This document shows positions 1,057-20,970 of a stretch of DNA of 35,488 bases, piece after piece (within the stretch, counting starts at the first letter, position 1; each line of letters starts with the position of its first letter). A program made the translations under genes and the position numbers. The notes under the pieces were generated by a model. The model did no database searches, was not told the DNA's origin, and saw only the letters and a program-made list of their open reading frames with translations. This stretch comes from Micavibrio sp. (GTDB taxonomy: Bacteria > Pseudomonadota > Alphaproteobacteria > Micavibrionales > CSBR16-224): contig JALTWL010000290.1 in the NCBI GenBank assembly GCA_027047045.1, positions 1 through 35,488 of the forward strand, given 5' to 3'.

Positions 1057-1084
1057 AGAAAAAATCTTCTCCAGAAAAAGCAAA

Positions 1085-3142: not shown

Positions 3143-3146
3143 ACTA

Positions 3147-4457: not shown

Positions 4458-4468
4458 CTATAGTCCAT

Positions 4469-6066: not shown

Positions 6067-6125
6067 TTTGTACTCCTATGAGAAAAATTTATTTGGTTTA
6101 ACCTAACAATTAACACAAACAGAGC

Positions 6126-7379: not shown

Positions 7380-7384
7380 TAATT

Positions 7385-8935
7385 TTATCTAATTTCCTTG
7401 AATTCTATTAACGCATTTTTTTGTCTAAAAGATTGTTTGTTAAAATAACCACTACTGGCCATATGAATAGCTTTAGATTTACCTAAATGCTTTATCCATT
7501 TTGTGTTTTTAGGTTGTTGTATTTTTTCTTCTATTAATAATCTATCTTCTTCAAAAGTAAACTTCCTAATGACATGCCCATCAATTTTATTTTTGCCCGT
7601 CATGAGTTTTTTTACGATAATTTTTTTAAATAAATTACCTAAAAATACAGATTTAAATATAGTCAAACTTAGCGCTCTTAAAATAATAAATTTTAAAGGG
7701 GTTGGATAATCCTCACCCGACAAATAAAAATCAGTCTTTATAATAAAATCATCAAAATTAATATTATTCTCAAAAGCTTGTGTAGAGAACTTTTTATTAT
7801 TATTTAAGACACCAAATAAACCACCATCTTCAAAAACCTGTTTTGAGTTTTTATCAAATATTTTTATTGTTCCACCTTTTTTATAATTAATTACGGCAAA
7901 ATAATGTTTATTTGAATGAAGGAAAAGCCCCGCTCCTTGAAAATCTTTTTCATCCTCACATTGCCAAAAAGCTTTTAATTTACATTTTTTTATAGCAGCC
8001 TTGCTTTGCTCAAAGTTAATTGCCGCCACAGCATAGGAATTTAACAGTGGAATAAAATTACCTATATCTATTTCTTGGGGTAAAATATGCTGTTCTTTAG
8101 GCTCTAAATATTTTGCCATCAATGCAAAATCATCTATTTTCTCCGCAAGACTAATGATACCAGCAGGATAAAAAACCTCGGTATTTCTTGAACCATAAAG
8201 TCCACCAATACTTCCATCTGGATGAATGAAATGTTTTAAAAAACGAGCTGATTTCTCTAAACTTTTCAGTAGCTTTTTATCTTGAGTAATCTCATAAGCG
8301 CAATAAAGATAATAAGTACATAAAGTTTGATAGGCAGGATCTGCTCCATCATATTCACGATACCAACCTTCTGATGATTGCTGTTTATAAATAATTGCCA
8401 ACAACTCATTAGCATGACAATTATCAGATTCTGTTAATTTATTCCAAAGAGCTATTGCAGCAACCGCTGTCGCCAAATGATTAGAAATAACAGCATGTTC
8501 TTCATTATTTACGGTAATAAAATTAATAAGCGGGCGAATAATATCAAAATATTTATCTATTATAATTTCATCTTGCAAATAGTTTAAAGCCGATAATATA
8601 TCAAATGCCACAAGCGCAGTTACACAAAAAGAATTTTCCGCAGGATACGCTTCTTCCATAGAGCCATTAGAATATGTGATATTGCTAGTCGCATTAATAA
8701 CGCTATCAATAACGTCTAAAACTTTTCTCTTTTCCTCCGCAGTAAACAACTCAAGTTTTATTGCAATGGCAAGGCTATGCACACCACCTTGCATAGTTGC
8801 ATTGGCAAAATCTTTGGTTTTCCAGCCCCAATACTCTCTATCTCCTATACCGTAAGTGGTCGAAAACTTATCTAAATTATATAGATTTAATAGACGGCTT
8901 AAATTTTCAGACAGTATTTGTTTATAAATGTTCAC
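7385..8935 (-). CDS. Hypothetical 516-aa protein of unknown function (possibly an alpha/alpha-toroid-type carbohydrate-active enzyme)
   Basis: Long ORF translationally coupled to the upstream gene by a 4-nt overlap. Segments rich in aromatic residues and Gly (SSEGWYREYDGADPAYQT, HPDGSIGGLYGSRNTEVFYPAG) resemble heparinase-II/III or cyclase-like toroid folds. That is pattern recognition only. Confidence 0.55.
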   Translation of the reverse strand: MNIYKQILSENLSRLLNLYNLDKFSTTYGIGDREYWGWKTKDFANATMQGGVHSLAIAIKLELFTAEEKRKVLDVIDSVINATSNITYSNGSMEEAYPAENSFCVTALVAFDILSALNYLQDEIIIDKYFDIIRPLINFITVNNEEHAVISNHLATAVAAIALWNKLTESDNCHANELLAIIYKQQSSEGWYREYDGADPAYQTLCTYYLYCAYEITQDKKLLKSLEKSARFLKHFIHPDGSIGGLYGSRNTEVFYPAGIISLAEKIDDFALMAKYLEPKEQHILPQEIDIGNFIPLLNSYAVAAINFEQSKAAIKKCKLKAFWQCEDEKDFQGAGLFLHSNKHYFAVINYKKGGTIKIFDKNSKQVFEDGGLFGVLNNNKKFSTQAFENNINFDDFIIKTDFYLSGEDYPTPLKFIILRALSLTIFKSVFLGNLFKKIIVKKLMTGKNKIDGHVIRKFTFEEDRLLIEEKIQQPKNTKWIKHLGKSKAIHMASSGYFNKQSFRQKNALIEFKEIR

Positions 8936-9351
8936 GGCTTATCATTTCTATAAATAAAAGACCAAGACAAATTAAAGTCCATCGGCAATATTCCAAGTGG
9001 TTTTTTAACGGACTTAATATTTATAAAATTATCATCGAGTTGTTTCTTAATTTTATTTACAAAATTAGGGTGCTCCCAACAAATTATTTTATCGTAATCA
9101 ATATCCATGTGTTTCTTTACATACCTTCTTGAGGTTACGAATCTACCTAGACCCCAAGCAATTCCACCTTCAGTCGGCACAGCGCCAATTAAAATACCGT
9201 TAGGCTTTAATATTCTTTTTAATTCTTGTAAATAATATTCATTCTGCCATTTTATAAAATCAGCATCATAAAAATCTGTTTTTAATCCCCATTTTTCCCT
9301 ATCACCAAATAATGGCTTGAATATAAAATACGGTAAATATCTATATAGCAT
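8932..9351 (-). CDS. Methyltransferase-like C-terminal half (lacks the SAM-binding motif I)
   Basis: LKRILKPNGILIGAVPTEGG matches the post-motif-III region of class I methyltransferases. Only ~45 aa precede it and they contain no GxGxG motif. The ORF overlaps its upstream neighbour by 11 nt and its downstream neighbour by 4 nt. Confidence 0.5.
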   Translation of the reverse strand: MLYRYLPYFIFKPLFGDREKWGLKTDFYDADFIKWQNEYYLQELKRILKPNGILIGAVPTEGGIAWGLGRFVTSRRYVKKHMDIDYDKIICWEHPNFVNKIKKQLDDNFINIKSVKKPLGILPMDFNLSWSFIYRNDKP

Positions 9352-10627
9352 TTAATAACTCCTTGTAAAAACTATTCCATTTGTAATCACTATTACAGAC
9401 TCTTTGATGCCAAGAAATTGAAAAATAAGCGGTTTTTGGCGTTTCTTTAGCATTTTTAAATATATCCAAAGCTAAATCTTTTTTTTCATTATAATCAAAA
9501 ATATTTGAATCCATAATGACTTGAGGTATCTCGAAATAATTAAATGCTTTTTTGTCTTTAAAATTATATGGTCGATAAAGGCTGGCTATCCCACTTCTAA
9601 AACCAACCTGATTATTCCACCCTAAACTTGAATCGTATTCAAATAATTTACTGTGACTATATGGAGTAATATTTTCATTATAATTAAGCCAATGCTGTCT
9701 CGTTTTTGTAACCTTTGTTTTTAAGATGCTTTCTAAAATCTGTTTTTCTTTTTTCAGTTGCTCGTAATCTAAAGCGCTTTTATAACTACCATGCAAACCA
9801 ATCTCGAAACCTTTTTTTTGTAATTCTTGTAGTTTAACTCGTAGTTTTTTATTTGAAGCAACGTCATAACTTGGATCTATTAATAACTCTTTTAGAGTTT
9901 TTTTCCCATGCTTTACGTAGATATAAAAAGTGGATTTTTTTTTAAAACCTTTTTCCAAGTCAACCCAATAGTCAAAACACCAATAAGATGGATTTGAAAA
10001 TAAAAATTGCAGCATTCTTTTTGTATTATTTAGAAAGTTTTTATAATCTCTGAAAATATTAACTGAATTTAAGATTGTTTGCTTAAATCTTAATTGCCAG
10101 GTCTTATTTATATAATCCACATCATGCGATAAATCCACAACAGGCACTGCTCTATTTTTAAACTTAAGTGATTTAAAATTCTGCTTTATAAATCCTTCAA
10201 ATTCATTAAATAGAACATTTACAATTGGAATATAAAAACTTTCCCTATCATTTCTTATGTGCTTTATACTGTAGCTTGCCGTGTTTTTAAATTGTTCTTC
10301 ATACCTACTTAAAAATACAAACGCATTCCAGAAAACATCATATTTAAAATTAAAATTATTATTTTCTGTAGCTTTTAAAATATATAAATCTTCTTTTAAA
10401 TATTCAATATTCCCATCTGGCTTAGGCATTAAAGCATTGAAAATTGATACTTTGTCTATAGCTTTATTGGTATAATATATTTCATTTTCAAAAAAAGCTT
10501 GGCTATCAATAGATACTACTTTTATAGTAAACTTAGCCAAATTTATTCTTCTAAATTCTTCTAAAACATATTCTAGAAAGTTAGTCTCTTTTAAATCTGT
10601 TTTTATTACTAATAAATCACCCATCAA
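9341..10627 (-). CDS. Polysaccharide deacetylase-like (divergent NodB/CE4-like) protein
   Basis: 428 aa with DLSHDVDY and GLHGSY motifs, reminiscent of the metal-binding motifs of deacetylase-family proteins encoded next to AsnB-like amidotransferases. Confidence 0.5.
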   Translation of the reverse strand: MMGDLLVIKTDLKETNFLEYVLEEFRRINLAKFTIKVVSIDSQAFFENEIYYTNKAIDKVSIFNALMPKPDGNIEYLKEDLYILKATENNNFNFKYDVFWNAFVFLSRYEEQFKNTASYSIKHIRNDRESFYIPIVNVLFNEFEGFIKQNFKSLKFKNRAVPVVDLSHDVDYINKTWQLRFKQTILNSVNIFRDYKNFLNNTKRMLQFLFSNPSYWCFDYWVDLEKGFKKKSTFYIYVKHGKKTLKELLIDPSYDVASNKKLRVKLQELQKKGFEIGLHGSYKSALDYEQLKKEKQILESILKTKVTKTRQHWLNYNENITPYSHSKLFEYDSSLGWNNQVGFRSGIASLYRPYNFKDKKAFNYFEIPQVIMDSNIFDYNEKKDLALDIFKNAKETPKTAYFSISWHQRVCNSDYKWNSFYKELLNAI

Positions 10628-12488
10628 TAAAACTCCTGAACCAGACCTCTAAACTTAATATCCCCCATAAATCTCTATTAAATTTACCAGAATTCACCAA
10701 CATATTTTCTACTTCTTTAGGATTGTATATTCCTCTTTCTCTTGCTTTTTGAGAGAGCAGGGTATCATGTGCATAGTCTTTTAACTCATTAGATAGCCAC
10801 TTATTTATTGGGGTGGGGAAACCCATTTTATCTTTTCTATTAATAACCTCTTGAGGCAGAAAGTTTTTAATAGCTTCTATCAACATATACTTTGTTTTAC
10901 CACCTTCAAATTTCATTATAGGATTAATTTGAGATGCTAATTCCACCAATCTATAATCCAATATTGGCACTCTAGATTCTAATGAATGAGCCATACTAAC
11001 TCTGTCTTCTACATGTAAAAGAGCAGGAATTAGAGTTTTTAAATCGAAATACGTCATTTTATTGAAAAGAGATTTTATATTTGGATTATTAAAAATAGAT
11101 TGAAACTTGCTAAATAATTTATCTTGTTCGGATAATATATCAAGTTCATATAGTTTGTTTGCATTTAGGGATCTATTAACAAGCTTAAAATAGCTTTTAT
11201 CTATATCTTCAAATATCCCCGTGGAAAAATGGCTTTTCATCATCGGAACATAACCTTGCAATTGTGAAAGATTTGGAATAATTGATTGCAAGGTCACAAC
11301 ATATTCACTTTCTTCTTGAGTTTCAAAAATTGCACCTTTTAAAGCTTGCTCTAAATAAGCAACTAAATATCGCGTATATCCACCAAATATTTCATCACCG
11401 CCATGCCCACCTAAGACAACAGTTACATGTTCTTTAGCAAGTTTTGAGACCATATATTGAGAAAACACTCCAGAACCTGCCTCTGGATAATCCATGTGAT
11501 AAATTATATTTTCAAAATTATCAATAAAGTCGTTATGGGTAGGATATATAACATTGTGAATACTATTAATATTTTTACTAACCAAATCAGAATAAAACGT
11601 CTCATCATATTCTGGGCCATCTTTAAAAGCGCCGCTAAAAGTATAAAGGCGACTGTCATAGTTTTTCGCTGCAAATGTTGCAACTATACTAGAATCTATA
11701 CCTCCACTTAAATAAGCCCCAACTTTAACATCAGAACGAGTTTGAATATTAACAGAATGGTCTAAAATATGCTGGATCTCTGATAAGAAATATTCTTCAC
11801 TATGGGTGTTATCTATATCATAATTCAATTCCCAATATTGTTGCTTTTTAACCACTCTCCCTTCTTTAACTATCATATAATTTGCAGGTTCAAGTGATGA
11901 AATATCTTTAAATAATGTGTTTTCTCCAAGCATTAATTGAAACGTTATATATTCATGTAAAGAGGGTTCATCTAATTTTGCTTGAATATTGGGATATTTT
12001 AAAATTGCCTTTACCTCTGAGGCAAAAACAAAACCATTTTCTACATTAGTATAATATAAGGGCTTAATTCCGAAATGATCTCTTGCTAAAAATAACTCCT
12101 GCTTTTTTTTATCATAAACGGCAAAGGCGAACATACCATTTAGCTTGGTTAAGCATTTTTCTTTATACTCAATATAAATATTAAGTAAGACTTCTGTATC
12201 AGAAAAGGTTTTAAATTTATATCCTTTAGCAATTAAATCCTGTCTTAATTCCAAATAGTTATATATCTCACCATTAAAAATCAAGACATATCTGTCATCA
12301 TTACTGGACATAGGTTGTTTGGCACCTTCAATATCAATAATTGCCAATCTTTTATGCCCTAAGGCAACTCTATCATCAATAAAACAACCCTCATCATCAG
12401 GCCCCCTATGATTAAGAGTGCTTAACTGTTCTTTTAAAATACTTTCTTTATTCTCTATTTTAGAATAAAATCCAACAATTCCACACAT
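10617..12488 (-). CDS. asnB: Asparagine synthase (glutamine-hydrolysing) family amidotransferase, AsnB-like
   Basis: MCGIVGFY N-terminal nucleophile Cys2, the GATase-II domain and the PP-loop SGGIDSS. 623 aa, the full two-domain length. Confidence 0.9.
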   Translation of the reverse strand: MCGIVGFYSKIENKESILKEQLSTLNHRGPDDEGCFIDDRVALGHKRLAIIDIEGAKQPMSSNDDRYVLIFNGEIYNYLELRQDLIAKGYKFKTFSDTEVLLNIYIEYKEKCLTKLNGMFAFAVYDKKKQELFLARDHFGIKPLYYTNVENGFVFASEVKAILKYPNIQAKLDEPSLHEYITFQLMLGENTLFKDISSLEPANYMIVKEGRVVKKQQYWELNYDIDNTHSEEYFLSEIQHILDHSVNIQTRSDVKVGAYLSGGIDSSIVATFAAKNYDSRLYTFSGAFKDGPEYDETFYSDLVSKNINSIHNVIYPTHNDFIDNFENIIYHMDYPEAGSGVFSQYMVSKLAKEHVTVVLGGHGGDEIFGGYTRYLVAYLEQALKGAIFETQEESEYVVTLQSIIPNLSQLQGYVPMMKSHFSTGIFEDIDKSYFKLVNRSLNANKLYELDILSEQDKLFSKFQSIFNNPNIKSLFNKMTYFDLKTLIPALLHVEDRVSMAHSLESRVPILDYRLVELASQINPIMKFEGGKTKYMLIEAIKNFLPQEVINRKDKMGFPTPINKWLSNELKDYAHDTLLSQKARERGIYNPKEVENMLVNSGKFNRDLWGILSLEVWFRSFIDG

Positions 12489-12498
12489 TTATCGCTAT

Positions 12499-13320
12499 TC
12501 AATCATGTAATTTTTTTACGTTTTTATAACCAGTTCTCCACCCGCCCCAAGGCCAATAATATAATAATACCAATGTCATATAGCCAAAAGTTGTAATAGA
12601 ACTAACCATTTTGGAGGCACTTCTTTTTTGATCATATCTCAAAACAAAAGGTGCTTCTCCAAATTTAGCCCCAATGATTTTTAATTTAACAACTTTTTCT
12701 AAAGTAACAGTAAAACCCAATCCCTTTAATTGAATAAAGTTATTTCCAAAAACTTCTATAACATGTTTAATAGCCTTTGCCTTATAAGCCCTAAAACCGC
12801 TAGAATATTCCTTTAATCCCTTTATAGGAAAAAAGAATTTCATAAATAGATTAGCCAATTTTGAAATTGTTGATCTATAACCATCTAAACCTTCTTGACC
12901 TCCACCTTCAACAAATCTTGACGCTATAACGACATCACAACCTTCTTCTATTCTTTCCAATAAGCTTGGGATAAATTGAGGTTCATGAGTATCATCACAA
13001 TCCATTCTTATAAAAATATCATCGTCATTGGATATTTTCGCAGCTTTTTCAAATAAATCCCTAGAAGTTTCTCCCAGCCCTCTATTTATCTCATGAGTTA
13101 TAATCGTCATTGGAAGTTTTTCAGAGTATTCCTTGAGCATTTTTGCTGTTTTATCTCGACTACCATCGTCACAAACTATTATGTGATAATCTAATTTCAT
13201 ATCTTCTTTAAACGCTTTGTCAATTTTTGGCAAAAGATAGTCTAAAGATTCTTCTTCATTATAAGCCGGTAGTAAAATATATATCACTAGATGTTTCCTA
13301 ATATTTTTTAATATAGTCAA
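12499..13320 (-). CDS. Family 2 glycosyltransferase (polyprenyl-phosphate sugar transferase-like)
   Basis: YILLPAYNEEESL, CDDGSRDKT and MDCDDTH (DXD) motifs. The start may be the TTG at 13320 or a downstream GTG. Confidence 0.9.
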   Translation of the reverse strand: MTILKNIRKHLVIYILLPAYNEEESLDYLLPKIDKAFKEDMKLDYHIIVCDDGSRDKTAKMLKEYSEKLPMTIITHEINRGLGETSRDLFEKAAKISNDDDIFIRMDCDDTHEPQFIPSLLERIEEGCDVVIASRFVEGGGQEGLDGYRSTISKLANLFMKFFFPIKGLKEYSSGFRAYKAKAIKHVIEVFGNNFIQLKGLGFTVTLEKVVKLKIIGAKFGEAPFVLRYDQKRSASKMVSSITTFGYMTLVLLYYWPWGGWRTGYKNVKKLHD

Positions 13321-13323
13321 ATT

Positions 13324-13395
13324 TTTAACAGCATAATATATGTTATAATATAAGTTCTAGTATTACTATAAAATAACATATATTATGCTGTTAAA
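13324..13395. repeat. Perfect 23-bp inverted repeat (TTTAACAGCATAATATATGTTAT / ATAACATATATTATGCTGTTAAA) with a 26-nt spacer
   Basis: Arms at 13324-13346 and 13373-13395 are exact reverse complements. The repeat lies in the ~85-bp gap between the GT2 start and the truncated GT4 gene. Confidence 0.9.
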
Positions 13396-13413
13396 CATAA
13401 CCGACATGGCTGA

Positions 13414-14358
13414 TATGAACAACAAAAAAAAACTATATTTGAAAAAATAACAACAATCATCAGATATGCTTTTTATGTTATCAAAGATTCATCAAAATTT
13501 TCGGTTATTCATTGCCATGATTTAGACACTCTACCGATAGGAACCGCAATAAAGTTAATAAACTTTAATAAAAAAAAGCTCATTTATGATGCACATGAAT
13601 ATGAAACGGAACGAAATCATATTAACGGATTTTTAAAAAGTTTATATAAAATTACTGAACGTATATTTATTGGCTTTGCCGATAATATAATTACGGTGAG
13701 TGACGGCATTGCAGATGAATATGTTCGGATTTATGGAGTAAAGAAACCTAACCTAGTTATGAATTGTCCACCTTATATTGATAAAGTTAATAGTAAAGAT
13801 ATTTTTCGTAAAAACTTTAATATAGATAAAAAACAAAACATTTTTCTATATCAAGGTGGATTATTCAATCATAGAGGCATAGAAACAATATTAGAAAGTT
13901 TCCAACAAACCCAAGATAAAATAGTTGTATTTATGGGGAATGGACCACTGGAAGGTATAATAAAACAAGCCGCCGATAAACATGATAATATTTTTTATCA
14001 TAAAGCAGTATCACCCGATGTTTTGTTAGATTATACAGCATCAGCTGATATTGGGATTTTCACATGCCCAAATAGCTGCTTAAGTCATTATTATTGTTTA
14101 TCAAATAAATTATTTGAATATACAATGGCTGAATTACCCGTAATTGTGTCAGATTTGCATGAAATGAAAAGAATAATTGATAAATATCAAAGTGGCTTAG
14201 TAATAAAAAACAATACTAAAGCTCTTACTGAAGTGATAAATAATATAACAGCAACAGATATTAAAAATTATAAAAAGAATATCAAAGCAATGAAGAAAAT
14301 ATATTGCTGGGAGCAACAAGAAAAATCATTATTAAGCCTTTATAATCACAATAACTGA
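13414..14358 (+). pseudogene. Family 4 glycosyltransferase lacking its N-terminal ~60-70 codons and a canonical in-frame start (the ORF track calls only 13696-14358)
   Basis: The frame is open from 13414 and encodes ...FSVIHCHDLDTLPIGTAIKLI..LIYDAHEYETERNH...ITVSDGIADEY...NCP, followed by the C-terminal GT-B domain. There is no ATG, GTG or TTG in frame before 13696. An out-of-frame ATG at 13406 precedes an A9 tract. Confidence 0.55.
13424..13432 (+). repeat. Homopolymeric A9 tract separating the ATG at 13406 from the GT4 reading frame
   Basis: Counted directly. Adding one A (A10) would fuse MADMNNKKK to TIFEKITTIIRY... in the GT4 frame. Confidence 0.8.
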
Positions 14359-15401
14359 GCAATTATTCTTTCTGCTGAATTCCCCGCACCATATATATTT
14401 TCTTTAAAATAATTTACGCTAGATAGTTTTTTAACGGCAGAGAGAATTTTAGTCTTATTTGCCCCAGTTAAAATTCCTATACCATTTTCAATCAGCTCTA
14501 ACCATTCTGTTTCATCTCGCATAATTATAACTGGCTTTTTAAAATAATAAGCCTCTTTTTGTAATCCGCCAGAATCGGTTAAAACCGTTTTTGTATTTTG
14601 CAATAAATATAGCATATCAAAATATCCAACAGGCTCAATTATATGTAAGTTTTCTATATTGATTTTGTATTCTTCCAGATATTTTTTTGTTCTCGGGTGT
14701 AGAGGTAAAACTACTGGATTGTTTTTGGCTATTTCATCTAAGCTAGCAAAAATTTCAGTTAAATTTTGTTCATTATCAGTATTTTCTTGTCGATGGCACG
14801 TGGCTAAATAAAAATCTTTTGGTATATTCTTGGTTATTTCAGATGATTTAATTTTAGCCTTATAATATAATACAGCGTCATACATAACATCACCAACAAC
14901 ATATATATTATCTTTTACACCCTCTTTTTTTAGATTCTCTGCTGACAAATCAGTGGGACAGAATAAATATTTAGACACATGATCTGTAATAATTCTATTT
15001 ATTTCTTCTGGCATGTTTTTGTTGTAAGAACGCATTCCAGCTTCAATATGAGCGATCGGAATTAACAATTTTACGGCCGATAATGCTGCGGCAAGTGTCG
15101 AATTTGTATCACCATAAACTAAGATAATATCAGGTTTTTCATCTATCATAATTTCTTCTAGCTTTATTAGCATTTCTCCTGTCATTGCACCGTGAGATTT
15201 ACCATTAATGGCTAGATTATAATCTGGTTCTGGGATATCCATTTCATCAAAGAAAATTTGTGACATATTATTTTCGTAATGTTGCCCTGTGTGAATAATT
15301 ATCTCTGTTATAACATTAGAATATTTTTCTTTTATTACTCTAGAAATGGTCGCAGCTTTGATAAATTGTGGCCTTGCACCGATAATTGTTAGTATTTTCA
15401 T
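14346..15401 (-). CDS. wecB: UDP-N-acetylglucosamine 2-epimerase (non-hydrolysing)
   Basis: MKILTIIGARPQFIKAA, HTGQHY, YGDTNSTLA, HIEAGMRS and DSGGLQKEA motifs. 351 aa. Confidence 0.92.
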   Translation of the reverse strand: MKILTIIGARPQFIKAATISRVIKEKYSNVITEIIIHTGQHYENNMSQIFFDEMDIPEPDYNLAINGKSHGAMTGEMLIKLEEIMIDEKPDIILVYGDTNSTLAAALSAVKLLIPIAHIEAGMRSYNKNMPEEINRIITDHVSKYLFCPTDLSAENLKKEGVKDNIYVVGDVMYDAVLYYKAKIKSSEITKNIPKDFYLATCHRQENTDNEQNLTEIFASLDEIAKNNPVVLPLHPRTKKYLEEYKINIENLHIIEPVGYFDMLYLLQNTKTVLTDSGGLQKEAYYFKKPVIIMRDETEWLELIENGIGILTGANKTKILSAVKKLSSVNYFKENIYGAGNSAERIIAQLL

Positions 15402-15563
15402 CTAGTAATCCTTTTAGTAAGTATTTTAGCATTGTTTTTATTACTATATAGTACAAACCATTACTAACTAATAACAACAAATATATTTACTATTGAATAA
15501 AAAACTTCTATTTATAACAGTTAAAGAAATCAATAAAAGTATAATGATACTGAAAGGATAACC

Positions 15564-15689
15564 ATGGTTATAAAAGTAGAAATATTGAATAATGATGACG
15601 AGATATCACAACAATATGATAAAATAGAGATAACTAATATAATCAATACACTACAAAATGATCTAATAATAGGTAAAGTATTAAAGTAA
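15564..15689 (+). CDS. 41-codon ORF with a good RBS, in the same frame as ORF 15819-16124 (possibly the N-terminal piece of an interrupted gene)
   Basis: AAGGA lies 6 nt upstream of the ATG at 15564. TAA at 15687-15689. The frame stays open from 15690 to 16124. Confidence 0.3.
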   Translation: MVIKVEILNNDDEISQQYDKIEITNIINTLQNDLIIGKVLK

Positions 15690-15818
15690 CTAGAAAACAA
15701 CCCCTGTAATCTTAGTGATAAAACGGCGGCACATAAAATTATAATAGATAATCATCTAACTGAAAAAACAATCGTTAATGGGAAACTAACAACAATAGAA
15801 ACACCCTTACAAATAAAA

Positions 15819-16124
15819 ATGACTACAATATATGATATAGAAAATAATATAACAGTTCGAGGGATTATAATAATAAACCCCCACCTTCTATTAAAAACAG
15901 AGTACTGTATAGAACAAATAAATAAAGAAACTGGTGAAATAGATATAGAGAAAAGAAAATATACAATGAAAGAGGCTCTTCTATATGCTATGCTGTTGAT
16001 AGTACGAAAACAAAGCTATATAAAATCTGGTTTTATATCTGACAGCGATATAAAAAATCATGATATACACCAACAACTTATGGCATATGTTCAGCAAAAT
16101 CTGGAAAGATTAGAAAGTGCGTAA
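15819..16124 (+). CDS. Hypothetical protein (101 aa from the first ATG)
   Basis: ORF in the track with no recognisable motifs. It is in frame with the upstream 41-codon ORF. Confidence 0.4.
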   Translation: MTTIYDIENNITVRGIIIINPHLLLKTEYCIEQINKETGEIDIEKRKYTMKEALLYAMLLIVRKQSYIKSGFISDSDIKNHDIHQQLMAYVQQNLERLESA

Positions 16125-16555
16125 GCAACACATCACATAATAATCCTATATACATAAAAACCCCAATATCTTAAATTAAGGACGTTTTTACTATACTGGT
16201 TTCAAATGAACCATAATTTGCACAAGATTGATCGATGGTAGTTCAGAAGGCAGAGCAAAGTCTCCTTTTGATCTTAATGAAATTATCATGATTTTTAGGA
16301 GCACGAAGGCTCTTAAAATTGAATTACGAATGATGGACTTGTGTATGAATAATACACTGCACGTCCTCGTATATATTTCACTTGCGTACTCGCAAAGTCT
16401 CATCCTTTGTGTAATATAACTCGATGTAATTTCCGTTTAAAATACGTTGTATTTTTGAATGTAAATTGCGATTAAACGGCAATGTGTTTATCTCCATGAC
16501 ATGGCCTTAAAGAGGGATACAACGGGAGAATGCGGGCAGCAATTTTCTCCCTTGT

Positions 16556-16620
16556 CAAGATTGTATTGTATTGTTCTTTGTTAACATTTTGTTAAACTTT
16601 GTACTACAATACACATCTTG
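16556..16620. repeat. Long imperfect hairpin (15 bp, one bulge) enclosing a TTTGTTAA(A)C direct repeat
   Basis: caagattgtattgta (16556-16570) pairs with tacaataca-c-atcttg (16605-16620). The inner direct repeats are at 16577-16585 and 16588-16597. A 7-bp hairpin GGGAGAA/TTCTCCC sits at 16524-16551. Confidence 0.6.
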
Positions 16621-17018
16621 CGTTAAATAGGAATAGAACAAAAATATAGCGATTCGAATGGGTTTTGTTACTTTGTTAATTCAAAATATTAGGCTCGCTT
16701 AAAATTATTTTGAATTTTTTTCAGCAATAATGTCCGCCCTAATTTTCTTATCCTATTGTATTTCTTCACGCCGCAATCAATTCCAAAAACATTTATATAT
16801 TTTTTATTTTTCTATTAACTACGCAAAAAATATTTACAATACTTAAAGCTCCACAACAATACATCTACCTAGTCATTTATATAACACTATATGCTGAGGA
16901 GTAGCGTATTTAAATGTACAATCTAAATAATTTTAAGAATGGCTATAACACAAAACTAAAGATAGGTACCATACAACACTAATGTAGGATACTAATACCA
17001 AAAAATAGAAATACACAG

Positions 17019-20000
17019 TCAACTACACTCCTGCCATTTTTTAATCTGAGCTACACAGTCATCTATGTTATCCCGTATCTCATACACCCAGAACCTTTTT
17101 ACATCCCAACCAAGTTCGAATAATCTTTGATTCCTAATTTGGTCGCGCCTACATAGTTCCCCAGTCCAGTTCCTGTGGTATCGCTCTCCATCAACTTCGA
17201 TATCCAGCCTACGTTCGTTACTAAATAGTGCTAAGTCAAGGGTATATTTTTCTACCTGATATTGAGGTATAGTTTTTATTCCAGCCTTATATAGTGCACT
17301 ATAAAGCACACGCTCCCATTTAGATACTCTATCTGGATTAGCAACAGTTGGATATTTCTCCCCCAAATCTTGTATGCGGTTTTCAACGCCACTCGTAGAC
17401 ATGGTTTCCAAGTTCTTCACATACTTAGCAAATCTTTCCAAGTATGAAACTTTACATTTAATAATAGATTCTAGATCTCCAACTACTAACAGCGTAGCAC
17501 GAGCTCTCGTTATAGCAACATTGAAAAGATTGCCGTTATTTTCCAAAAAGGCTAAGGCCCCTACCGGCATATTATTGGAAATTACTGGGGAAAATATTAT
17601 AACATCCCGCTCATCACCTTGAAACTTATGCACTGTATCTACTATAAAATCGTGCTCTAACAATTTATCCTGTAAACCATTGCAGTCACCAATAATCCTG
17701 CGTATAAAATTAGCTTGTCCCCTAAAGGGAGTAACTATTCCAATTGTACCGTTATATTTTTTTTCATTAATCAGCCTATCTATTTCTTTAACCACACATC
17801 TAGCTTCTTCCTCATTGACTGCTCCACCAGTTTTAGGTCTTACTACCTCACCTTTTACGTTTATCCATTGCACTCCACGTTTATTGGAATCTATAGGTTT
17901 TAGGCAACTATAATCAGTTGCAACCCTTAGCTTATTTTCATAAAACCCCTTATTTGCAAATTCAATTATGTCCTTATGTGATCTATGGTGATCCCTAAGA
18001 TTAATAATGCTATCTTGCGATGCAAATCCGCACGCAAGATCAAATAAAGAATTATATGAATAAGCCCATCTAACATATTCAGGTACTAAACCATATTTTT
18101 CTAAAAGTTGTTGATCCTGCCCTTTTTTCAAGCCACTAATATGGCATAGTTGTTTTGGATCTCCAATAACAACTGCTTGTTTGGCCCTATATAGCAAAGG
18201 TAAGGCTGACGCAATATCACACTGACTTGCTTCATCAAATACCACAATGTCGAAGTAACCGGCTTCAAAAGGGACTTTTCCCCTAGCGGACAACGATGTC
18301 ACAGCCCATGCAGGTAATAAATGGGATACTTGCTTTGATAAAGCGGAATACTCTCTGTAAATTTTCCTTCCAAGCTTTTTATAAATATCACCTCCAGTCT
18401 CAATAATCATCTTTAACATAGTATGGTAATTTCCAAGCAAATTTCTATCTTCATCTGATAGCCTGCTCGGCTGCAAGTTCAACCATCCTATCCAAATATC
18501 CTTAGCTATACTTGCCATATCTTTTAGTAGAGATAATCTTTCCTTTGCAATCTGTTCAAGAGATTTAGTGTTTTTAAGCTCAGTAAGTATGTCAGCATAC
18601 TCATGCAATACTTGCGCAAACTTATAATATTCAGTTAGTTTCTGGTGTAAATCTGACCACGATTGAATACTATAGCTCACATCCATTTTACTTGTGAATA
18701 TTTCTAAATCAGAGGCAAGATTATGAAATTCCTTCCAAAAATCTTGGTAACACTTTCTACCCACCAACGCCCAGCGTAACATGCCCAAAATACCATGTCT
18801 GTTTTGTAAATGCTGTATCAACGTGTATAAATCATCGGCAACCATCCTGATATACATCGGATCTATATTGTTCAATCTTTCGACTAAGTCAGGAGAAAAA
18901 TATTTTTGCCTATTGGTAATAATCTGGTCTAACTCGTCAATTTTATTACGTAATTCTACAAGCCTATCTTCATATTTTGACAACCGAGTAAACCTTTTTT
19001 CTAGATTTCTATAGCGTTGTTTATCAAATTCAAATTCTTGTGAATCATATACAGAAGAACTGGTTGTCAACAATCCAATCAAATATTCTGCTAGCCTTAC
19101 ATGATACTGCCCTGCCCCCATACGCAACAATACCGGGCGTGGTGCAAGGTTGTTAACTCTTGTTTCAACCACATCTACCGCTTTATTGTTTTTACTTGCG
19201 AACAAAATCTTCTTTCCCCGCCAAACCGCATTTACAAGTAAGTTTGTAACTACTTGCGACTTTCCAGTACCAGGCGGTCCAGTTATAACTGTTAGAGGTG
19301 CATCTAAAGAGCTTTGAATAGCCTGACGCTGTTCAGTATTAAGCGGTAGGATCTCCAATATCGGTTTGTCTTCTGTATCACTTTCCGATTGTTTAAGTAA
19401 ATCTCCACTCACCCACTGTCCTAGTACAGTATCCTTGTATATACTTGGCTCTAATTTCGATAAGGATTTCAATTCTGCCTCCAGACCTCGAGTGTAAGGT
19501 GAACGTTCACCAATGATGAAAATAGCTCTATTGTATATACCCTCTTCTTGTAATTCGCGTATAGGTGGCTCTGTAATAAGTTTATCTGGAACGATATCCT
19601 CCATCCATGGCCACTCTGGTCTGATGTTAACTAATCTTCGTACTAAATCATCAAATTCTGGTAAGTCCTCTCCAAAATCTATACCAAGCTCCTCTTCTAA
19701 CTGTACAAACTCATCCATAAGTTGTTCACGTTCTGCATTAGTAAATAGCTTTAGAACAGAAAAATTTAGCATAGGGAAAGTATCTGTTATTCTGAGCGTT
19801 CCCCTATTTACTTCAGCTGAAAATATGAATACTGGCTCTACAAAAAAGCCTTCCCAACTACTTCTTCGTGACTTCACATATTTTAAAACTGTTGGATATC
19901 CAAAGTATACTTCTTTGTTGCCGCGATCTCTCCTTATTTTGCTCAGTAAATTTTGTACTCCACCAGTATGCTGCAAGTAATCATTGTCGGAGCTTGGAAA

Positions 20001-20348
20001 AGAAACAAGCTCTGTATAATCCAAATCTTTGCCATCTGCAAAAACTCTAATTCCCTCACCTACGTCTTGCCCAAGACAAGCTAGATAATAATTACTAATT
20101 TTTGCAAGTGGTGTCCCTAAAGCAGTATCATCCTCTTTTACAGTTGATACTGGAAAGTCATTATTTAAGTACCAGCAGTACTTATTGTCCTGCATACATT
20201 TATCGCTCAAACTACCGTAAAGTGCTTTGTTAACAAGTTCCTTTTCAACACCAAGTTCAGATGCTATCTCACGTGCCTTTATTCCTGGCATATCTCTTAA
20301 AATAGACAAAATCTTAACGTTCAAATCAGAAGTATGTGAAGCAATCAT
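17019..20348 (-). CDS. Multidomain SF1B (Upf1-like, AAA_11/AAA_12-type) helicase with an N-terminal winged helix and a C-terminal Vsr/DUF559-type PD-(D/E)xK endonuclease
   Basis: Walker A GPPGTGKS (aa 357-364, nt 19257-19280), motif II FDEASQ, III VIGDPKQL, V TVHKFQGDERDVII, VI NVAITRAR. A long coiled-coil-like insert (aa ~410-690) separates motifs Ia and II. The C-terminus YTLDLAL..RLDIEVDGERYH..GWDVKRFW is the DUF559/Vsr-like signature. The N-terminus ILSILRDMPGIKAREIASELGVEKELVNKALYGSL...W is a wHTH. Confidence 0.9.
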   Translation of the reverse strand: MIASHTSDLNVKILSILRDMPGIKAREIASELGVEKELVNKALYGSLSDKCMQDNKYCWYLNNDFPVSTVKEDDTALGTPLAKISNYYLACLGQDVGEGIRVFADGKDLDYTELVSFPSSDNDYLQHTGGVQNLLSKIRRDRGNKEVYFGYPTVLKYVKSRRSSWEGFFVEPVFIFSAEVNRGTLRITDTFPMLNFSVLKLFTNAEREQLMDEFVQLEEELGIDFGEDLPEFDDLVRRLVNIRPEWPWMEDIVPDKLITEPPIRELQEEGIYNRAIFIIGERSPYTRGLEAELKSLSKLEPSIYKDTVLGQWVSGDLLKQSESDTEDKPILEILPLNTEQRQAIQSSLDAPLTVITGPPGTGKSQVVTNLLVNAVWRGKKILFASKNNKAVDVVETRVNNLAPRPVLLRMGAGQYHVRLAEYLIGLLTTSSSVYDSQEFEFDKQRYRNLEKRFTRLSKYEDRLVELRNKIDELDQIITNRQKYFSPDLVERLNNIDPMYIRMVADDLYTLIQHLQNRHGILGMLRWALVGRKCYQDFWKEFHNLASDLEIFTSKMDVSYSIQSWSDLHQKLTEYYKFAQVLHEYADILTELKNTKSLEQIAKERLSLLKDMASIAKDIWIGWLNLQPSRLSDEDRNLLGNYHTMLKMIIETGGDIYKKLGRKIYREYSALSKQVSHLLPAWAVTSLSARGKVPFEAGYFDIVVFDEASQCDIASALPLLYRAKQAVVIGDPKQLCHISGLKKGQDQQLLEKYGLVPEYVRWAYSYNSLFDLACGFASQDSIINLRDHHRSHKDIIEFANKGFYENKLRVATDYSCLKPIDSNKRGVQWINVKGEVVRPKTGGAVNEEEARCVVKEIDRLINEKKYNGTIGIVTPFRGQANFIRRIIGDCNGLQDKLLEHDFIVDTVHKFQGDERDVIIFSPVISNNMPVGALAFLENNGNLFNVAITRARATLLVVGDLESIIKCKVSYLERFAKYVKNLETMSTSGVENRIQDLGEKYPTVANPDRVSKWERVLYSALYKAGIKTIPQYQVEKYTLDLALFSNERRLDIEVDGERYHRNWTGELCRRDQIRNQRLFELGWDVKRFWVYEIRDNIDDCVAQIKKWQECS

Positions 20349-20923
20349 AGTATCGAACCTGTATCATTAAACAACATGTTATGCACTACCGTATTACCTA
20401 ACGTAGCTTTAATTTTTTCTACCGTAATGTATACCATTTTAGAAAACTGAAAGCGATAAAATTTCACAACCTAAACAAAATACAAAACAACAACAAAATT
20501 CATATCCCATAAAAGATTAGAAAATAAAGTGTATCTTATACTTATTAGCATCATTACTTTCAGTGACATACATAATATTTTAAAAAAGTGATGAGCCCAA
20601 CAAAACCTTGCTTTTATACAGCATTTTTTTGATATTCTTCAACTTTAAACTAGCTAAGTGATTCTTTAAAATTTATTCAATAATTATTTACATATATTTC
20701 AATAAGTTATATCGCATCAATAAAAATTAACATAATATTTTAGATGTTAGGCTATTGTTTTAACTAGAGAAATTTAATGGTAGGTGCATTGCTCTGCTAA
20801 AGCGTATAGATAACAATGATGATAAGCTTATAGTTATCCAATACAATGGGAACGTTCCAAGTGAAACAGAAATCCGAAAGCTAGTTCATTTTCAAGAAAA
20901 ATTTTTTAAATCTAAAATCATTT

Positions 20924-20942
20924 TTACCTAACAACTAGGTAA
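20924..20942. terminator. Weak AT-rich hairpin TTACCTA-acaac-TAGGTAA about 30 nt downstream of ligA (possible terminator)
   Basis: 7-bp perfect stem read directly. No strong U-run follows on either strand. Confidence 0.25.
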
Positions 20943-20970
20943 GACTATTATATTTAAAACCAACTATAAG

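What the first reader, a model, noticed from the sequence alone, without database searches (positions are those of the whole stretch)
20163..20348. N-terminal winged helix carries the Z-alpha signature K-x3-N-x3-Y plus a wing tryptophan
Residues 12-60 (KILSILRDMPGIKAREIASELGVEKELVNKALYGSLSDKCMQDNKYCWY) align by eye with the ADAR1 Z-alpha domain (..[55 protein letters not shown]). K36/N40/Y44 fall at the spacing of ADAR1 K169/N173/Y177 in the recognition helix. W59 falls where W195 sits in the beta wing, although the two wing prolines are absent. If this is a true Z-DNA/Z-RNA-binding module, its fusion to a helicase-nuclease would imply sensing of left-handed or otherwise unusual nucleic acid conformations by a bacterial effector.
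Basis: inference. Interest (0 to 1): 0.7.

Follow-up and report, generated by a model that had tools for sequence, protein, structure and literature searches.

The report
Bacterial Z-alpha domain on defence helicase-nuclease
The first 60 residues of a 1109-residue bacterial helicase-nuclease are a real relative of the Z-alpha domain that animal antiviral sensors use to grip left-handed DNA and RNA. The same domain recurs on many bacterial anti-phage proteins, so shape-based sensing of nucleic acid may be shared by bacterial and animal immunity, though binding itself is untested.

Summary
Window 20163-20348 (minus strand) encodes aa 1-62 of a 1109-aa ORF (17019-20348). K36, N40, Y44 and W59 are there and are conserved in orthologues (105, 106, 106 and 117 of 120).

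Sequence, profile and fold searches all place the domain nearest to Z-alpha, not to a generic MarR-type winged helix.
- Family profile against the PDB: CyHV-3 ORF112 Z-alpha E 2.6e-9, PKZ 2.7e-7, ADAR1 about 1e-4. The best ordinary natural winged helix scores 6e-3.
- hhalign against canonical Z-alpha: 97.7% probability.
- The AlphaFold2 model's best PDB match is ORF112 Z-alpha bound to Z-DNA (rmsd 1.3 Å).

The two wing prolines are replaced by K56 and Y57. Pfam's z-alpha model does not reach this particular sequence.

The domain is mobile. It is fused to other helicase-nucleases, a PbeA-like helicase, Mrr nuclease, a ZorC subfamily, WYL and sigma-70 proteins, and it is missing from some orthologues.

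The host protein is a standalone Upf1-like SF1B helicase with a Vsr-like nuclease, and it often sits in defence islands.

Z-form binding cannot be tested here. I found no paper linking Z-alpha to phage defence.

The parts
17019..20348 (-). Whole ORF of 1109 aa: Z-alpha-like domain, linker, conserved middle domain, SF1B helicase, Vsr-like nuclease
   Evidence: ORF; Pfam AAA_11, AAA_12, MTES_1575/DUF559; more than 100 full-length orthologues of 1105-1130 aa
20166..20339 (-). Z-alpha-family winged helix, aa 4-61, with topology a1 (4-19), b1 (23-24), a2 (25-32), a3 (36-44), b2 (51-53), b3 (58-61)
   Evidence: AF2 model, pLDDT above 90 for aa 11-60; PDB phmmer and profile hits to Z-alpha; hhalign 97.7%; Foldseek
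20217..20243 (-). Recognition helix a3, aa 36-44 (KELVNKALY). K36, N40 and Y44 correspond to ADAR1 K169, N173 and Y177; K41 corresponds to R174; E37 stands where ADAR1 has K170
20166..20198 (-). Beta wing, aa 51-61 (CMQDNKYCWYL). W59 corresponds to W195. K56 and Y57 replace P192 and P193. Q53, D54 and Y57 are family-specific conserved residues
20112..20165 (-). Variable, low-confidence linker, aa 62-79
   Evidence: pLDDT 58-62; variable columns
19344..20111 (-). Conserved middle domain, aa 80-335 (motifs YYLACLG at 87-93 and RPEWPW at 243-248), with no detectable relative in the PDB
   Evidence: alignment A2; AF2 pLDDT 81; no PDB sequence hit; no meaningful Foldseek hit
17454..19343 (-). Upf1/Sen1/IGHMBP2-type SF1B helicase core, aa 336-965. 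Walker A GPPGTGKS 357-364, Walker B FDEASQ 704-709, motif III GDPKQL 729-734, motif V 907-915, motif VI 943-950. About 300 aa lie between Walker A and Walker B (aa 365-703)
17037..17315 (-). C-terminal Vsr-like (DUF559 / REase_MTES_1575) nuclease domain, aa 1012-1104, with LDLAL and DIEVDGERYH motifs intact

Best explanation
Residues 4-61 are a true (homologous) member of the Z-alpha branch of winged-helix domains. The domain is attached by a flexible linker to a standalone defence enzyme made of a 5'-3' Upf1-like SF1B helicase and a Vsr-like DNA nuclease.

Proposed mechanism:
1. The domain binds the sugar-phosphate backbone of a duplex by shape rather than by sequence. It uses the same surface as animal and viral Z-alpha: helix 3 (K36, N40, K41, Y44) and the wing (W59 buttressing Y44, with K56 and Y57 in place of the two prolines).
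2. It therefore prefers, or stabilises, left-handed or Z-prone (underwound, alternating purine-pyrimidine, junction-containing) DNA or RNA. Such forms should arise on incoming or heavily transcribed phage nucleic acid.
3. Binding concentrates or licenses the helicase, which translocates, and the C-terminal nuclease cuts.

What is shown: homology, fold, conservation of the contact residues, the modular use of the domain on many defence proteins, intact catalytic motifs, and single-gene organisation in defence islands.

What is inferred: nucleic-acid binding by this copy, preference for the Z form, the order of events, and the anti-phage role of this particular gene.
For: Homology to Z-alpha:
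- phmmer of aa 1-75 against the PDB gives ORF112 Z-alpha at E 4.5e-4, followed by PKZ Z-alpha; E3 and ADAR1 Z-alpha also appear (10 of 14 hits).
- The family profile A1 gives ORF112 2.6e-9, PKZ 2.7e-7, ADAR1 9e-5 to 8e-4, E3 about 2e-3 and ZBP1 4e-3 to 2e-2. The best ordinary natural winged helix (PapI) scores 6e-3, and MarR scores 0.35 or worse.
- hhalign of A1 against canonical Z-alpha gives 97.7% probability and E 1.4e-12 over 57 columns, including the wing tryptophan.
- An HMM built from 7 canonical Z-alpha sequences hits 263 of 269 family proteins. Unrelated flanking ORFs score 5.7 bits or less.
- Pfam z-alpha hits 56 of 93 family copies at E<=1. It passes its 21-bit gathering score in P0144 (24.1 bits) and P0152 (23.8 bits).

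Fold:
- The AF2 model has pLDDT above 90 over aa 11-60 and an a1-b1-a2-a3-b2-b3 topology.
- The Foldseek PDB rank 1 hit is 4wcg, ORF112 Z-alpha bound to Z-DNA (TM 0.82, rmsd 1.3 Å, 34% identity). Z-alpha or Z-beta structures take 12 of the top 16 places.
- In the viral library, the rank 1 hit is a phage protein annotated 'Z DNA-binding protein'. Poxvirus E3 homologues and ORF112 also rank within the top 15.

Contact residues are conserved.

Defence association of the domain: it is found on a PDC-S37-like helicase-nuclease, a PbeA-like helicase (three copies, with a PPxW wing), Mrr_cat, an MzaA-like sigma factor, ZorC (EH_Signature), WYL and Zn_ribbon_Top1 proteins.

Defence context of orthologues: they lie next to McrBC, an MmeI-like methyltransferase and a WYL protein, a Type ISP enzyme and a reverse transcriptase, or MNT/HEPN. 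No neighbour is conserved across 60 loci, so the gene is a single-gene unit.

Other support:
- The domain is optional, because the orthologues in L045 and L041 lack it.
- Catalytic motifs are intact.
- In E. coli ZorC, a C-terminal globular domain is required for sequence-independent dsDNA binding and for defence (PMC11946911). The ZorC subfamily modelled by PADLOC PDLC00623 carries this domain at that position.
Against: - No binding data exist for any member of this family.
- Pfam's z-alpha model does not hit the window's own sequence at E<=1. Its only Pfam matches are sub-threshold HTH_24 and MarR.
- In Foldseek, generic winged helices (methyltransferase N-domains, IclR, TFE) are interleaved from rank 8 at similar E-values.
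- P192 and P193 are replaced, and E37 replaces the second lysine of helix 3 in this copy.
- An almost invariant acidic residue (D54) sits in the wing.
- Published bacterial 'Z-alpha-like' domains failed to bind Z-DNA, although they lacked the Asn and Tyr (PMC11298590).
- The ZorC experiment used ordinary short dsDNA. I could not show that the E. coli ZorC C-terminal domain is the same domain.
- Fusions to sigma-70 and WYL proteins are also compatible with plain DNA binding.
- The window gene itself lies between a polysaccharide cluster and ligA, not in an obvious defence island.
Confidence: 0.45

Rival explanations
1. The homology is the same, but there is no Z-form specificity. The domain is a Z-alpha-derived winged helix that binds ordinary B-DNA (or A-form RNA or hybrids) non-specifically through the backbone. 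It simply adds affinity or processivity to the helicase-nuclease, as accessory winged helices do in many helicases and in ZorC.
For: - E. coli ZorC needs its C-terminal globular domain to bind ordinary 18-bp dsDNA in a sequence-independent way (PMC11946911).
- The wing prolines are absent.
- Bacterial Z-alpha-like domains tested so far do not bind Z-DNA.
- Generic HTH_24 and MarR matches are as frequent as z-alpha matches among family members.
- Fusions to sigma-70, PC4 and Zn_ribbon_Top1 are typical of general DNA binders.
Against: - The residues that are near-invariant across very different architectures are exactly the Asn-Tyr-Trp triad that gives canonical Z-alpha its conformational specificity.
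- Ordinary winged helices read bases in the major groove and do not conserve this triad.
- The sequence relationship to Z-alpha is about six orders of magnitude better than to any other solved natural winged helix.
Confidence: 0.35
2. The N-terminal winged helix is an autoregulatory or operator-binding module. It binds a specific site upstream of its own gene and represses expression of a potentially toxic nuclease.
For: - Weak Pfam similarity to MarR and HTH_24.
- Tandem copies fused to WYL domains resemble BrxR/CapW-type defence regulators.
- Some copies are fused to sigma-70.
Against: - There is no operator-like palindrome or direct repeat in the 620 bp upstream of the gene.
- The same domain, with the same conserved surface, occurs in unrelated loci and at the C-terminus of ZorC, so a shared specific operator is implausible.
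- Orthologues without the domain exist.
- The conserved residues are backbone-contacting rather than base-reading in the Z-alpha template.
Confidence: 0.07
3. The resemblance is convergence or a shared generic winged-helix core. The domain serves protein-protein contacts, for example autoinhibition of the helicase or sensing of a phage protein, rather than nucleic-acid binding.
For: - The domains are short, and individual Foldseek E-values are modest (6e-4 at best).
- W59 and L43 are core residues that any such fold might keep.
- D54 is an invariant acidic residue in the wing.
Against: - Profile E 2.6e-9 and hhalign 97.7% over the full domain.
- A reciprocal hit from a canonical Z-alpha HMM and from the curated Pfam model on many members.
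- The solvent-exposed N40 and R/K36 are conserved.
Confidence: 0.05

Closest known systems
Z-alpha domains of ADAR1 p150, ZBP1/DAI, fish PKZ, poxvirus E3 and cyprinid herpesvirus ORF112 (Pfam PF02295)
   Same: - Same a1-b1-a2-a3-b2-b3 winged helix.
- Same K/R-x3-N-x2-L-Y motif in helix 3 and same wing Trp.
- Best sequence, profile and fold matches.
- Both sit on immune or effector proteins, and tandem copies occur in both (for example P0132, P0125 and P0152).
   Different: - Bacterial rather than animal or viral.
- The wing is 3 residues shorter.
- P192 and P193 are replaced by K/x and Y, and there is a family-specific Q-D-x-x-Y-x-W wing motif.
- This copy has E where ADAR1 has K170.
- The fusion partners are helicases and nucleases, not deaminase, RHIM or kinase domains.
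- Z-form binding is untested.
- The Pfam model misses this particular sequence.
C-terminal domain of type I Zorya ZorC (PADLOC model PDLC00623, positions about 616-680)
   Same: The PADLOC ZorC model matches aa 8-64 at E 1.1e-9. ZorC-type proteins P0166 and P0263 carry two copies of the domain after the EH_Signature core. In E. coli ZorC, a C-terminal globular domain is needed for dsDNA binding and for defence.
   Different: The window protein has no EH_Signature domain and no ZorABD partners. Identity of the E. coli ZorC C-terminal domain with this domain was not shown. That paper does not describe the domain as Z-alpha (no mention in the passages read).
Single-protein helicase-nuclease defence proteins: Hhe, PDC-S37, Mokosh MkoA/MkoC, ProA
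   Same: The Upf1-like SF1B helicase core and, for Hhe, PDC-S37 and ProA, the C-terminal Vsr-like nuclease give strong partial matches: MkoC 2.3e-63, PDC-S37 4.2e-55, Hhe 4.4e-31, ProA 1.2e-61.
   Different: The matches cover only the helicase and nuclease parts. Scores are far below NCBIfam cut-offs (ProA 209 against 1500; Hhe 139 against 2000). The N-terminal Z-alpha domain and the 250-aa middle domain are not part of those models. No experiment on this family was found.
Previously reported bacterial 'Z-alpha-like' or 'Z-alpha-related' domains: sigma-54-interacting regulators (PMC11298590) and an ArsR subset (PMC11293857)
   Same: They are bacterial winged helices noted for resemblance to Z-alpha.
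   Different: Those have Ser and Asn in place of N173 and Y177 and do not bind Z-DNA, or have Arg in place of Asn plus a longer wing. The present family keeps Asn, Tyr and Trp and sits on defence enzymes rather than transcription factors.

Membership tests
Z-alpha domain (PF02295; ADAR1/ZBP1/PKZ/E3/ORF112) | Winged helix-turn-helix with a1-b1-a2-a3-b2-b3 topology, about 60-65 residues | tested here: met
   AF2 model with pLDDT above 90 for aa 11-60: H4-19, E23-24, H25-32, H36-44, E51-53, E58-61. TM 0.82 and rmsd 1.3 Å to 4wcg_A.
Z-alpha domain (PF02295; ADAR1/ZBP1/PKZ/E3/ORF112) | Specific sequence similarity to canonical Z-alpha, stronger than to other winged helices | tested here: met
   The PDB profile search gives 2.6e-9 (ORF112), 2.7e-7 (PKZ) and about 1e-4 (ADAR1), against 6e-3 or worse for ordinary natural winged helices. 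hhalign gives 97.7%. The single sequence gives 4.5e-4.
Z-alpha domain (PF02295; ADAR1/ZBP1/PKZ/E3/ORF112) | Passes the curated Pfam z-alpha gathering score (21 bits) | tested here: not met
   The window sequence has no z-alpha hit at E<=1. Other members of the same domain family do pass: P0144 at 24.1 bits and P0152 at 23.8 bits. 56 of 93 members hit at E<=1.
Z-alpha domain (PF02295; ADAR1/ZBP1/PKZ/E3/ORF112) | Helix 3 contact residues Lys169, Asn173 and Tyr177 | tested here: met
   K36, N40 and Y44 align to these residues and are conserved.
Z-alpha domain (PF02295; ADAR1/ZBP1/PKZ/E3/ORF112) | Wing Trp195 packing against Tyr177 | tested here: inconclusive
   W59 aligns to W195 and is invariant in 93 of 93 copies.
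Z-alpha domain (PF02295; ADAR1/ZBP1/PKZ/E3/ORF112) | Wing prolines Pro192 and Pro193 | tested here: not met
   K56 and Y57 occupy these positions. Y57 is conserved as Y in 73 and F in 11 of 93 copies. Some family members, such as P0152, do have PPxW. From my own knowledge, not checked here: human ZBP1 Z-alpha2 also lacks the prolines and still binds Z-DNA.
Z-alpha domain (PF02295; ADAR1/ZBP1/PKZ/E3/ORF112) | High-affinity, conformation-specific binding of Z-DNA or Z-RNA, and B-to-Z conversion | not testable with these tools
   This needs CD, EMSA or ITC with the purified domain.
Hhe / ProA / PDC-S37 / Mokosh helicase-nuclease defence proteins | Full-length match above the curated family cut-off | tested here: not met
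   ProA scores 208.7 bits against a cut-off of 1500, and Hhe 138.9 against 2000. PADLOC matches are partial and cover only the helicase and nuclease regions.
Upf1-like SF1B helicase | AAA_11 and AAA_12 domains with intact Walker A, Walker B and motifs III, V and VI | tested here: met
Vsr-like / DUF559 / REase_MTES_1575 nuclease | Pfam match above the cut-off, with the acidic motif present | tested here: met
   MTES_1575 scores 46.6 bits (cut-off 38.2) and DUF559 scores 31.6 bits (cut-off 20.6). The DIEVDGERYH motif is present.
ZorC (type I Zorya) | EH_Signature core domain | tested here: not met
   There is no EH_Signature hit in the window protein. Only the terminal winged-helix part of the PADLOC ZorC model matches.

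The most novel reading that the evidence does not exclude
Z-alpha-based recognition of left-handed or torsionally stressed nucleic acid is a prokaryotic immune strategy. On this reading, a bacterial Z-alpha clade serves as the sensor or targeting module of many anti-phage effectors: this helicase-nuclease, PDC-S37-like, PbeA-like and Mrr-type enzymes, and a ZorC subfamily. It would share ancestry with the sensor domain of ZBP1, ADAR1 and PKZ. Small phage-encoded Z-alpha-like proteins (top BFVD hits) could then act as decoys, as poxvirus E3 and herpesvirus ORF112 do in animals.
Probability: 0.3. Interest if true: 0.9.

Novelty: new variant of a known kind. Interest (0 to 1): 0.75.

Why it matters
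Z-alpha is the only protein fold known to read the left-handed conformation of DNA and RNA. So far it has been treated as a feature of animal innate immunity and of the large DNA viruses that counter it.

A bacterial clade that keeps the Asn-Tyr-Trp contact triad and sits on nucleases and helicases in defence islands would have four consequences.
1. It would add Z-alpha to the list of immune modules shared by bacteria and animals.
2. It would give a concrete, testable idea of what such single-protein helicase-nucleases recognise.
3. It would suggest a function for the unresolved C-terminal domain of at least one ZorC subfamily.
4. It would make the long-standing question of whether Z-form nucleic acid has a biological role in bacteria directly testable, using simple mutants (N40A, Y44A, W59A) and phage assays.

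If the domain turns out to bind ordinary duplex, the result still defines a widespread, unannotated DNA-binding module of defence proteins.

Tried and rejected
- **Pfam and NCBIfam on the window domain alone.** Only sub-threshold MarR, HTH_24, Csa3 and similar matches. These are uninformative by themselves.
- **Top PDB profile hit 8vd6 'CAP repeat'.** This is a designed repeat protein that scores by adding five weak HTH stretches (each i-Evalue 2.5-4.6). I rejected it as an artefact.
- **P0124 in the representative search (15 stretches).** A low-complexity repeat protein; discarded.
- **The search for homologous proteins with the domain alignment A1.** Returned 1 hit only. The same tool with the first Z-alpha copy of P0152 returned 4 near-identical fragments. 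Neither helped with census or bridging.
- **Identifying E. coli ZorC in the PDB.** I queried with a ZorC-type protein that carries the domain (P0166) and got no hit. ZorC was also not among the 60 profile hits listed, of 75 in all. The link to the experimentally studied ZorC C-terminal domain therefore stays unproven.
- **tblastn of a family member against GenBank phages and PLSDB plasmids.** No hits.
- **IMG/VR scans.** The alignment A1 was too diverse to make patterns. The window domain gave nothing. A narrower alignment gave one contig that carries a full-length orthologue, not a phage decoy.
- **Operator search upstream of the gene.** Nothing convincing.
- **tblastx of the two non-coding gaps around the gene against all fetched loci.** No remnants of neighbouring defence genes.
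- **Search for a conserved partner gene across 60 loci.** None found.
- **Middle domain aa 62-338.** No PDB sequence or fold relative.
- **Literature.** No paper linking Z-alpha or Z-DNA with anti-phage defence in the held library. Nothing on this helicase family either.
Full report
**1. What is at the coordinates**

Window 20163-20348, read on the minus strand, is the first 62 codons of a 1109-codon ORF (17019..20348).

The rest of the protein has these parts:
- a low-confidence linker (aa 62-79);
- a conserved middle domain of about 250 aa;
- an SF1B helicase core (Pfam AAA_11 at 336-734 and AAA_12 at 767-958), whose nearest solved relatives are Upf1, Sen1 and IGHMBP2;
- a C-terminal Vsr-like nuclease (REase_MTES_1575 / DUF559, aa 1012-1104).

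Walker A, Walker B, motifs III, V and VI and the acidic nuclease motif are all intact.

**2. Is the motif more than chance?**

The protein has more than 100 full-length orthologues of 1105-1130 aa at 49-63% identity. In an alignment of 120 of them:
- K36 is kept in 105;
- N40 in 106;
- Y44 in 106 (plus 7 Phe);
- W59 in 117.

L43, G45, Q53, D54 and Y57 are also nearly invariant.

An exhaustive HMMER search of 1.84 billion representative proteins with aa 1-75 found 227 proteins at E<=1e-3. From the best 150 I extracted the domain copies and aligned 92 of them with the window sequence (A1). In those 93 copies, taken from many different proteins:
- position 36 is Arg or Lys in 86;
- N40 is kept in 87;
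- L43 in 86;
- Y44 in 74 (plus 9 His);
- D54 in 84;
- Y57 in 73 (plus 11 Phe);
- W59 in all 93.

The signature is therefore the defining feature of a domain family, not an accident of one sequence.

**3. Is the family Z-alpha or a generic winged helix?**

Pfam on the window sequence alone is unhelpful. It gives only sub-threshold HTH_24 (E 1.5e-3) and MarR (E 2.5e-3) matches and no z-alpha match. Every more sensitive test points to Z-alpha.

(a) *Single sequence against the PDB.* phmmer of aa 1-75 against all PDB sequences returns 14 hits at E<=10. The six best, and 10 of the 14, are Z-alpha domains: CyHV-3 ORF112 (4.5e-4), then goldfish and zebrafish PKZ, with vaccinia E3 and ADAR1 further down.

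(b) *Family profile against the PDB.* The A1 profile gives ORF112 2.6e-9, PKZ 2.7e-7, ADAR1 9e-5 to 8e-4, E3 about 2e-3, and ZBP1 Z-alpha1 and Z-alpha2 4e-3 to 2e-2. The best ordinary natural winged helix (PapI) is at 6e-3, and MarR proteins are at 0.35 or worse. The nominal top hit, 8vd6, is a designed repeat protein that sums five insignificant HTH stretches.

(c) *Profile against profile.* hhalign of A1 against an alignment of seven canonical Z-alpha sequences (A3) gives 97.7% probability and E 1.4e-12 over 57 columns, wing included. It maps K36=K169, E37=K170, N40=N173, K41=R174, Y44=Y177, N55=T191, K56=P192, Y57=P193 and W59=W195. The ORF112 and PKZ sequences came and 27 output.

(d) *Reciprocal tests.*
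- An HMM built from A3 hits 263 of 269 family proteins. The window protein scores 19.7 bits.
- About 700 unrelated flanking ORFs score 5.7 bits or less.
- The curated Pfam z-alpha model hits 56 of 93 copies at E<=1, second only to the generic HTH_24 model at 73 of 93.
- The z-alpha model passes its gathering score in P0144 (24.1 bits) and P0152 (23.8 bits).

(e) *Fold.*
- AlphaFold2 with A1 gives a confident model (pLDDT above 90 for aa 11-60) with the a1-b1-a2-a3-b2-b3 topology.
- Foldseek against the PDB ranks ORF112 Z-alpha bound to Z-DNA first (4wcg_A: E 6.3e-4, TM 0.82, rmsd 1.3 Å, 34% identity).
- PKZ, apo ORF112, ZBP1 and ADAR1 follow. Z-alpha or Z-beta structures take 12 of the first 16 places.
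- Generic winged helices are interleaved from rank 8.
- Against predicted viral structures, the best hit is a 72-aa Siphoviridae protein annotated 'Z DNA-binding protein' (E 6.9e-6, TM 0.88). Poxvirus E3 homologues and ORF112 also rank within the top 15.

I conclude with about 85% confidence that this is a homologous, divergent bacterial branch of the Z-alpha family.

It differs from the canonical domain in four ways:
- the helix 3 to wing loop is 3 residues shorter;
- the two wing prolines are K56 and Y57, in a family-specific Q-D-x-x-Y-x-W wing;
- this copy has Glu where ADAR1 has K170 (most family members have Lys);
- the wing carries an almost invariant Asp (D54).

Some members, such as P0152, do have the canonical PPxW wing.

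**4. Where else the domain occurs**

Of 149 representative hits, 57 are the same helicase family, many of them as fragments. The other hits fuse the domain, often in two or three copies, to the following partners:

| Partner | Example |
|---|---|
| 1608-aa PDC-S37-like helicase with MTES_1575 nuclease | P0144 |
| PbeA-like SF2 helicase, three copies | P0152 |
| Mrr_cat restriction nuclease | P0159 |
| MzaA-like sigma-70 protein | P0161 |
| ZorC (EH_Signature), two C-terminal copies | P0166, P0263 |
| WYL domain | P0125, P0126 |
| Topoisomerase-type zinc ribbon | P0128 |
| PC4, DnaJ | one each |

Consistently, the PADLOC ZorC model PDLC00623 matches aa 8-64 of the window protein at E 1.1e-9.

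The domain is also dispensable for the enzyme. Orthologues in L045 and L041 (about 1035 aa) start directly at the middle domain. This is the behaviour of a mobile sensor or targeting module.

**5. What the host protein is**

The helicase and nuclease parts give strong but partial matches to known single-protein defence helicase-nucleases: MkoC, PDC-S37, MkoA, Hhe and ProA. The scores are far below the full-length cut-offs, so it is a related but distinct family.

Genomic contexts of orthologues:
- In Halomonas and Simiduia the gene sits in the same island: SNF2 helicase, MmeI-like methyltransferase, WYL protein, this gene, McrB, McrC, then an integrase or transposases.
- Elsewhere it lies beside a Type ISP restriction enzyme and a reverse transcriptase.
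- It also lies beside an MNT/HEPN pair and an integrase.
- In an IMG/VR contig it lies between a Fic protein and an XRE/ImmA pair.

Across 60 loci no neighbour is conserved, so it is a single-gene unit. It is spread patchily from Patescibacteria to Bacillota, Bacteroidota, Pseudomonadota and Acidobacteriota, as expected for a horizontally moving defence gene.

In the window it is solitary. It lies between a low-GC polysaccharide-synthesis cluster and ligA-recN-bamD-priA. Its G+C is 36-39%, above the 28-31% of the polysaccharide side and similar to the 34-40% of the ligA side. No partner remnants are detectable.

An anti-phage or anti-plasmid role is likely (about 70%) but was not shown for this family.

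**6. Mechanism**

The best-supported model is as follows.
1. The Z-alpha domain, on a flexible linker, binds duplex nucleic acid through the backbone in a shape-dependent, sequence-independent way.
2. This recruits or licenses the 5'-3' helicase.
3. The Vsr-like nuclease cuts.

The conservation of precisely the Asn-Tyr-Trp triad argues for recognition of left-handed or Z-prone (underwound, junction-containing) duplex. From established structural work on ADAR1 Z-alpha with Z-DNA (my own knowledge), this triad makes the conformation-specific contacts. I put about 45% on this reading.

The main rival (about 35%) is that the domain has kept the fold but binds ordinary duplex. The evidence for it:
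- the E. coli ZorC C-terminal globular domain is needed for binding plain 18-bp dsDNA (PMC11946911);
- the wing prolines are missing;
- the bacterial 'Z-alpha-like' domains tested so far did not bind Z-DNA, although they lacked the Asn and Tyr (PMC11298590).

I could not verify that E. coli ZorC's C-terminal domain is this same domain.

An autoregulatory operator-binding role is unlikely (about 7%). There is no operator-like repeat upstream, and the same surface is conserved in unrelated loci.

**7. Novelty**

Published surveys of Z-alpha outside animals and their viruses report three groups:
- giant-virus and protist members, plus non-binding bacterial sigma-54-regulator look-alikes (PMC11298590);
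- an ArsR subset with Arg in place of Asn (PMC11293857);
- structure-similarity lists of generic winged helices (PMC8775963).

Six of the seven literature searches that combined Z-alpha or Z-DNA with phage-defence terms found no paper joining the two. One search found a paper that mentions Z-alpha only on eukaryotic proteins. The passages of the Zorya structure paper that I read do not call the ZorC C-terminal domain Z-alpha, and one search counted no occurrence of the term in it. The library lacks most subscription-journal papers, so prior description cannot be excluded. An automatic 'Z DNA-binding protein' label on one phage protein shows that pipelines have brushed against the similarity.

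I classify the finding as a new variant of a known kind: a known fold family in a new kingdom, with a variant wing, in new architectures.

**8. Verdict**

- The Z-alpha homology is supported by independent sequence, profile and fold evidence.
- The Z-form-binding function is plausible but untested.
- Interest is high (0.75). One CD or EMSA experiment and a handful of point mutants would decide whether bacteria use the same nucleic-acid-shape sensor as ZBP1 and ADAR1.

Noticed in passing
window 19344-20111 (-), aa 80-335: The conserved middle domain (invariant YYLxC, RPEWPW and G-L-E-x-E-L motifs) is predicted confidently (pLDDT 81). It has no sequence or fold relative in the PDB: the best Foldseek E-value is 0.059 at TM 0.09. 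It may be an undescribed fold that forms the constant N-terminal module of this helicase family.
   Followed up: partly
window 18240-19256 (-), aa 365-703: About 300 residues lie between Walker A and Walker B of the helicase, so the Pfam AAA_11 match is stretched over aa 336-734. By eye the sequence of aa 396-700 looks helical and charge-rich. Not analysed.
   Followed up: no
L045 5944-9051 and L041 344-3454: These orthologues of the helicase-nuclease (about 1035 aa) lack the N-terminal Z-alpha domain entirely and start at the middle domain. In L045 a second, 1590-aa paralogous helicase lies immediately downstream (10250-15022).
   Followed up: partly
L003 1-15209 (Halomonas alkalicola) and L005 1-15241 (Simiduia sp.): The same gene order recurs in two genera: SNF2/SF2 helicase, 1164-1347-aa MmeI/Eco57I-like methyltransferase, WYL protein (about 410 aa), this helicase-nuclease, McrB, McrC, then an integrase or transposases. 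This may be a composite BREX-like or type IV island, or a multi-gene system.
   Followed up: no
BFVD hits A0A8S5QI74 (Siphoviridae sp. ctNs77, 72 aa) and A0A7T6ZMK1 (Vibrio phage PH669, 70 aa): Small stand-alone phage proteins are among the best structural matches to the domain (TM 0.79-0.88), and one is auto-annotated 'Z DNA-binding protein'. They could be phage decoys, analogous to poxvirus E3 and herpesvirus ORF112. Their sequences could not be retrieved here.
   Followed up: no
P0152 (743 aa): This protein has three tandem copies of the domain, with a canonical PPxW wing (GELPPRWSV), in front of a PbeA-like SF2 helicase. It looks like the most 'canonical' bacterial Z-alpha and may be a bridge between the bacterial and animal/viral branches.
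   Followed up: partly
P0166 (777-832, 916-971) and P0263 (627-683, 811-867): ZorC-type proteins (EH_Signature) of the PADLOC PDLC00623 subfamily carry two copies of the domain at the C-terminus. This suggests an identity for the unresolved C-terminal globular domain of at least some ZorC proteins.
   Followed up: partly
window 15402-17018 and 20349-20970: There is 1.6 kb downstream and 0.6 kb upstream of the gene without convincing ORFs (only short AT-rich ORFs and one 101-aa ORF at 15819-16124 with no Pfam match). The gene's G+C (36-39%) stands above the 28-31% on its polysaccharide side. This is consistent with a horizontally acquired insertion.
   Followed up: partly
window 1-15401: Among the ORFs scanned at 6126-15401 are polysaccharide or O-antigen-type synthesis genes: a DegT aminotransferase, asparagine synthase, GT2 and GT1 glycosyltransferases, and a UDP-GlcNAc 2-epimerase. 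The GT1 ORF at 13696-14358 is on the opposite strand and short (220 aa), so it may be a fragment.
   Followed up: no
Genome-contig scan: No identical or near-identical copy of the window protein exists among 185,579 species-representative genomes. The best is 64% identity, in a Candidatus Moranbacteria MAG. The source organism of the window is therefore not represented there, and its taxon was not determined.
   Followed up: no
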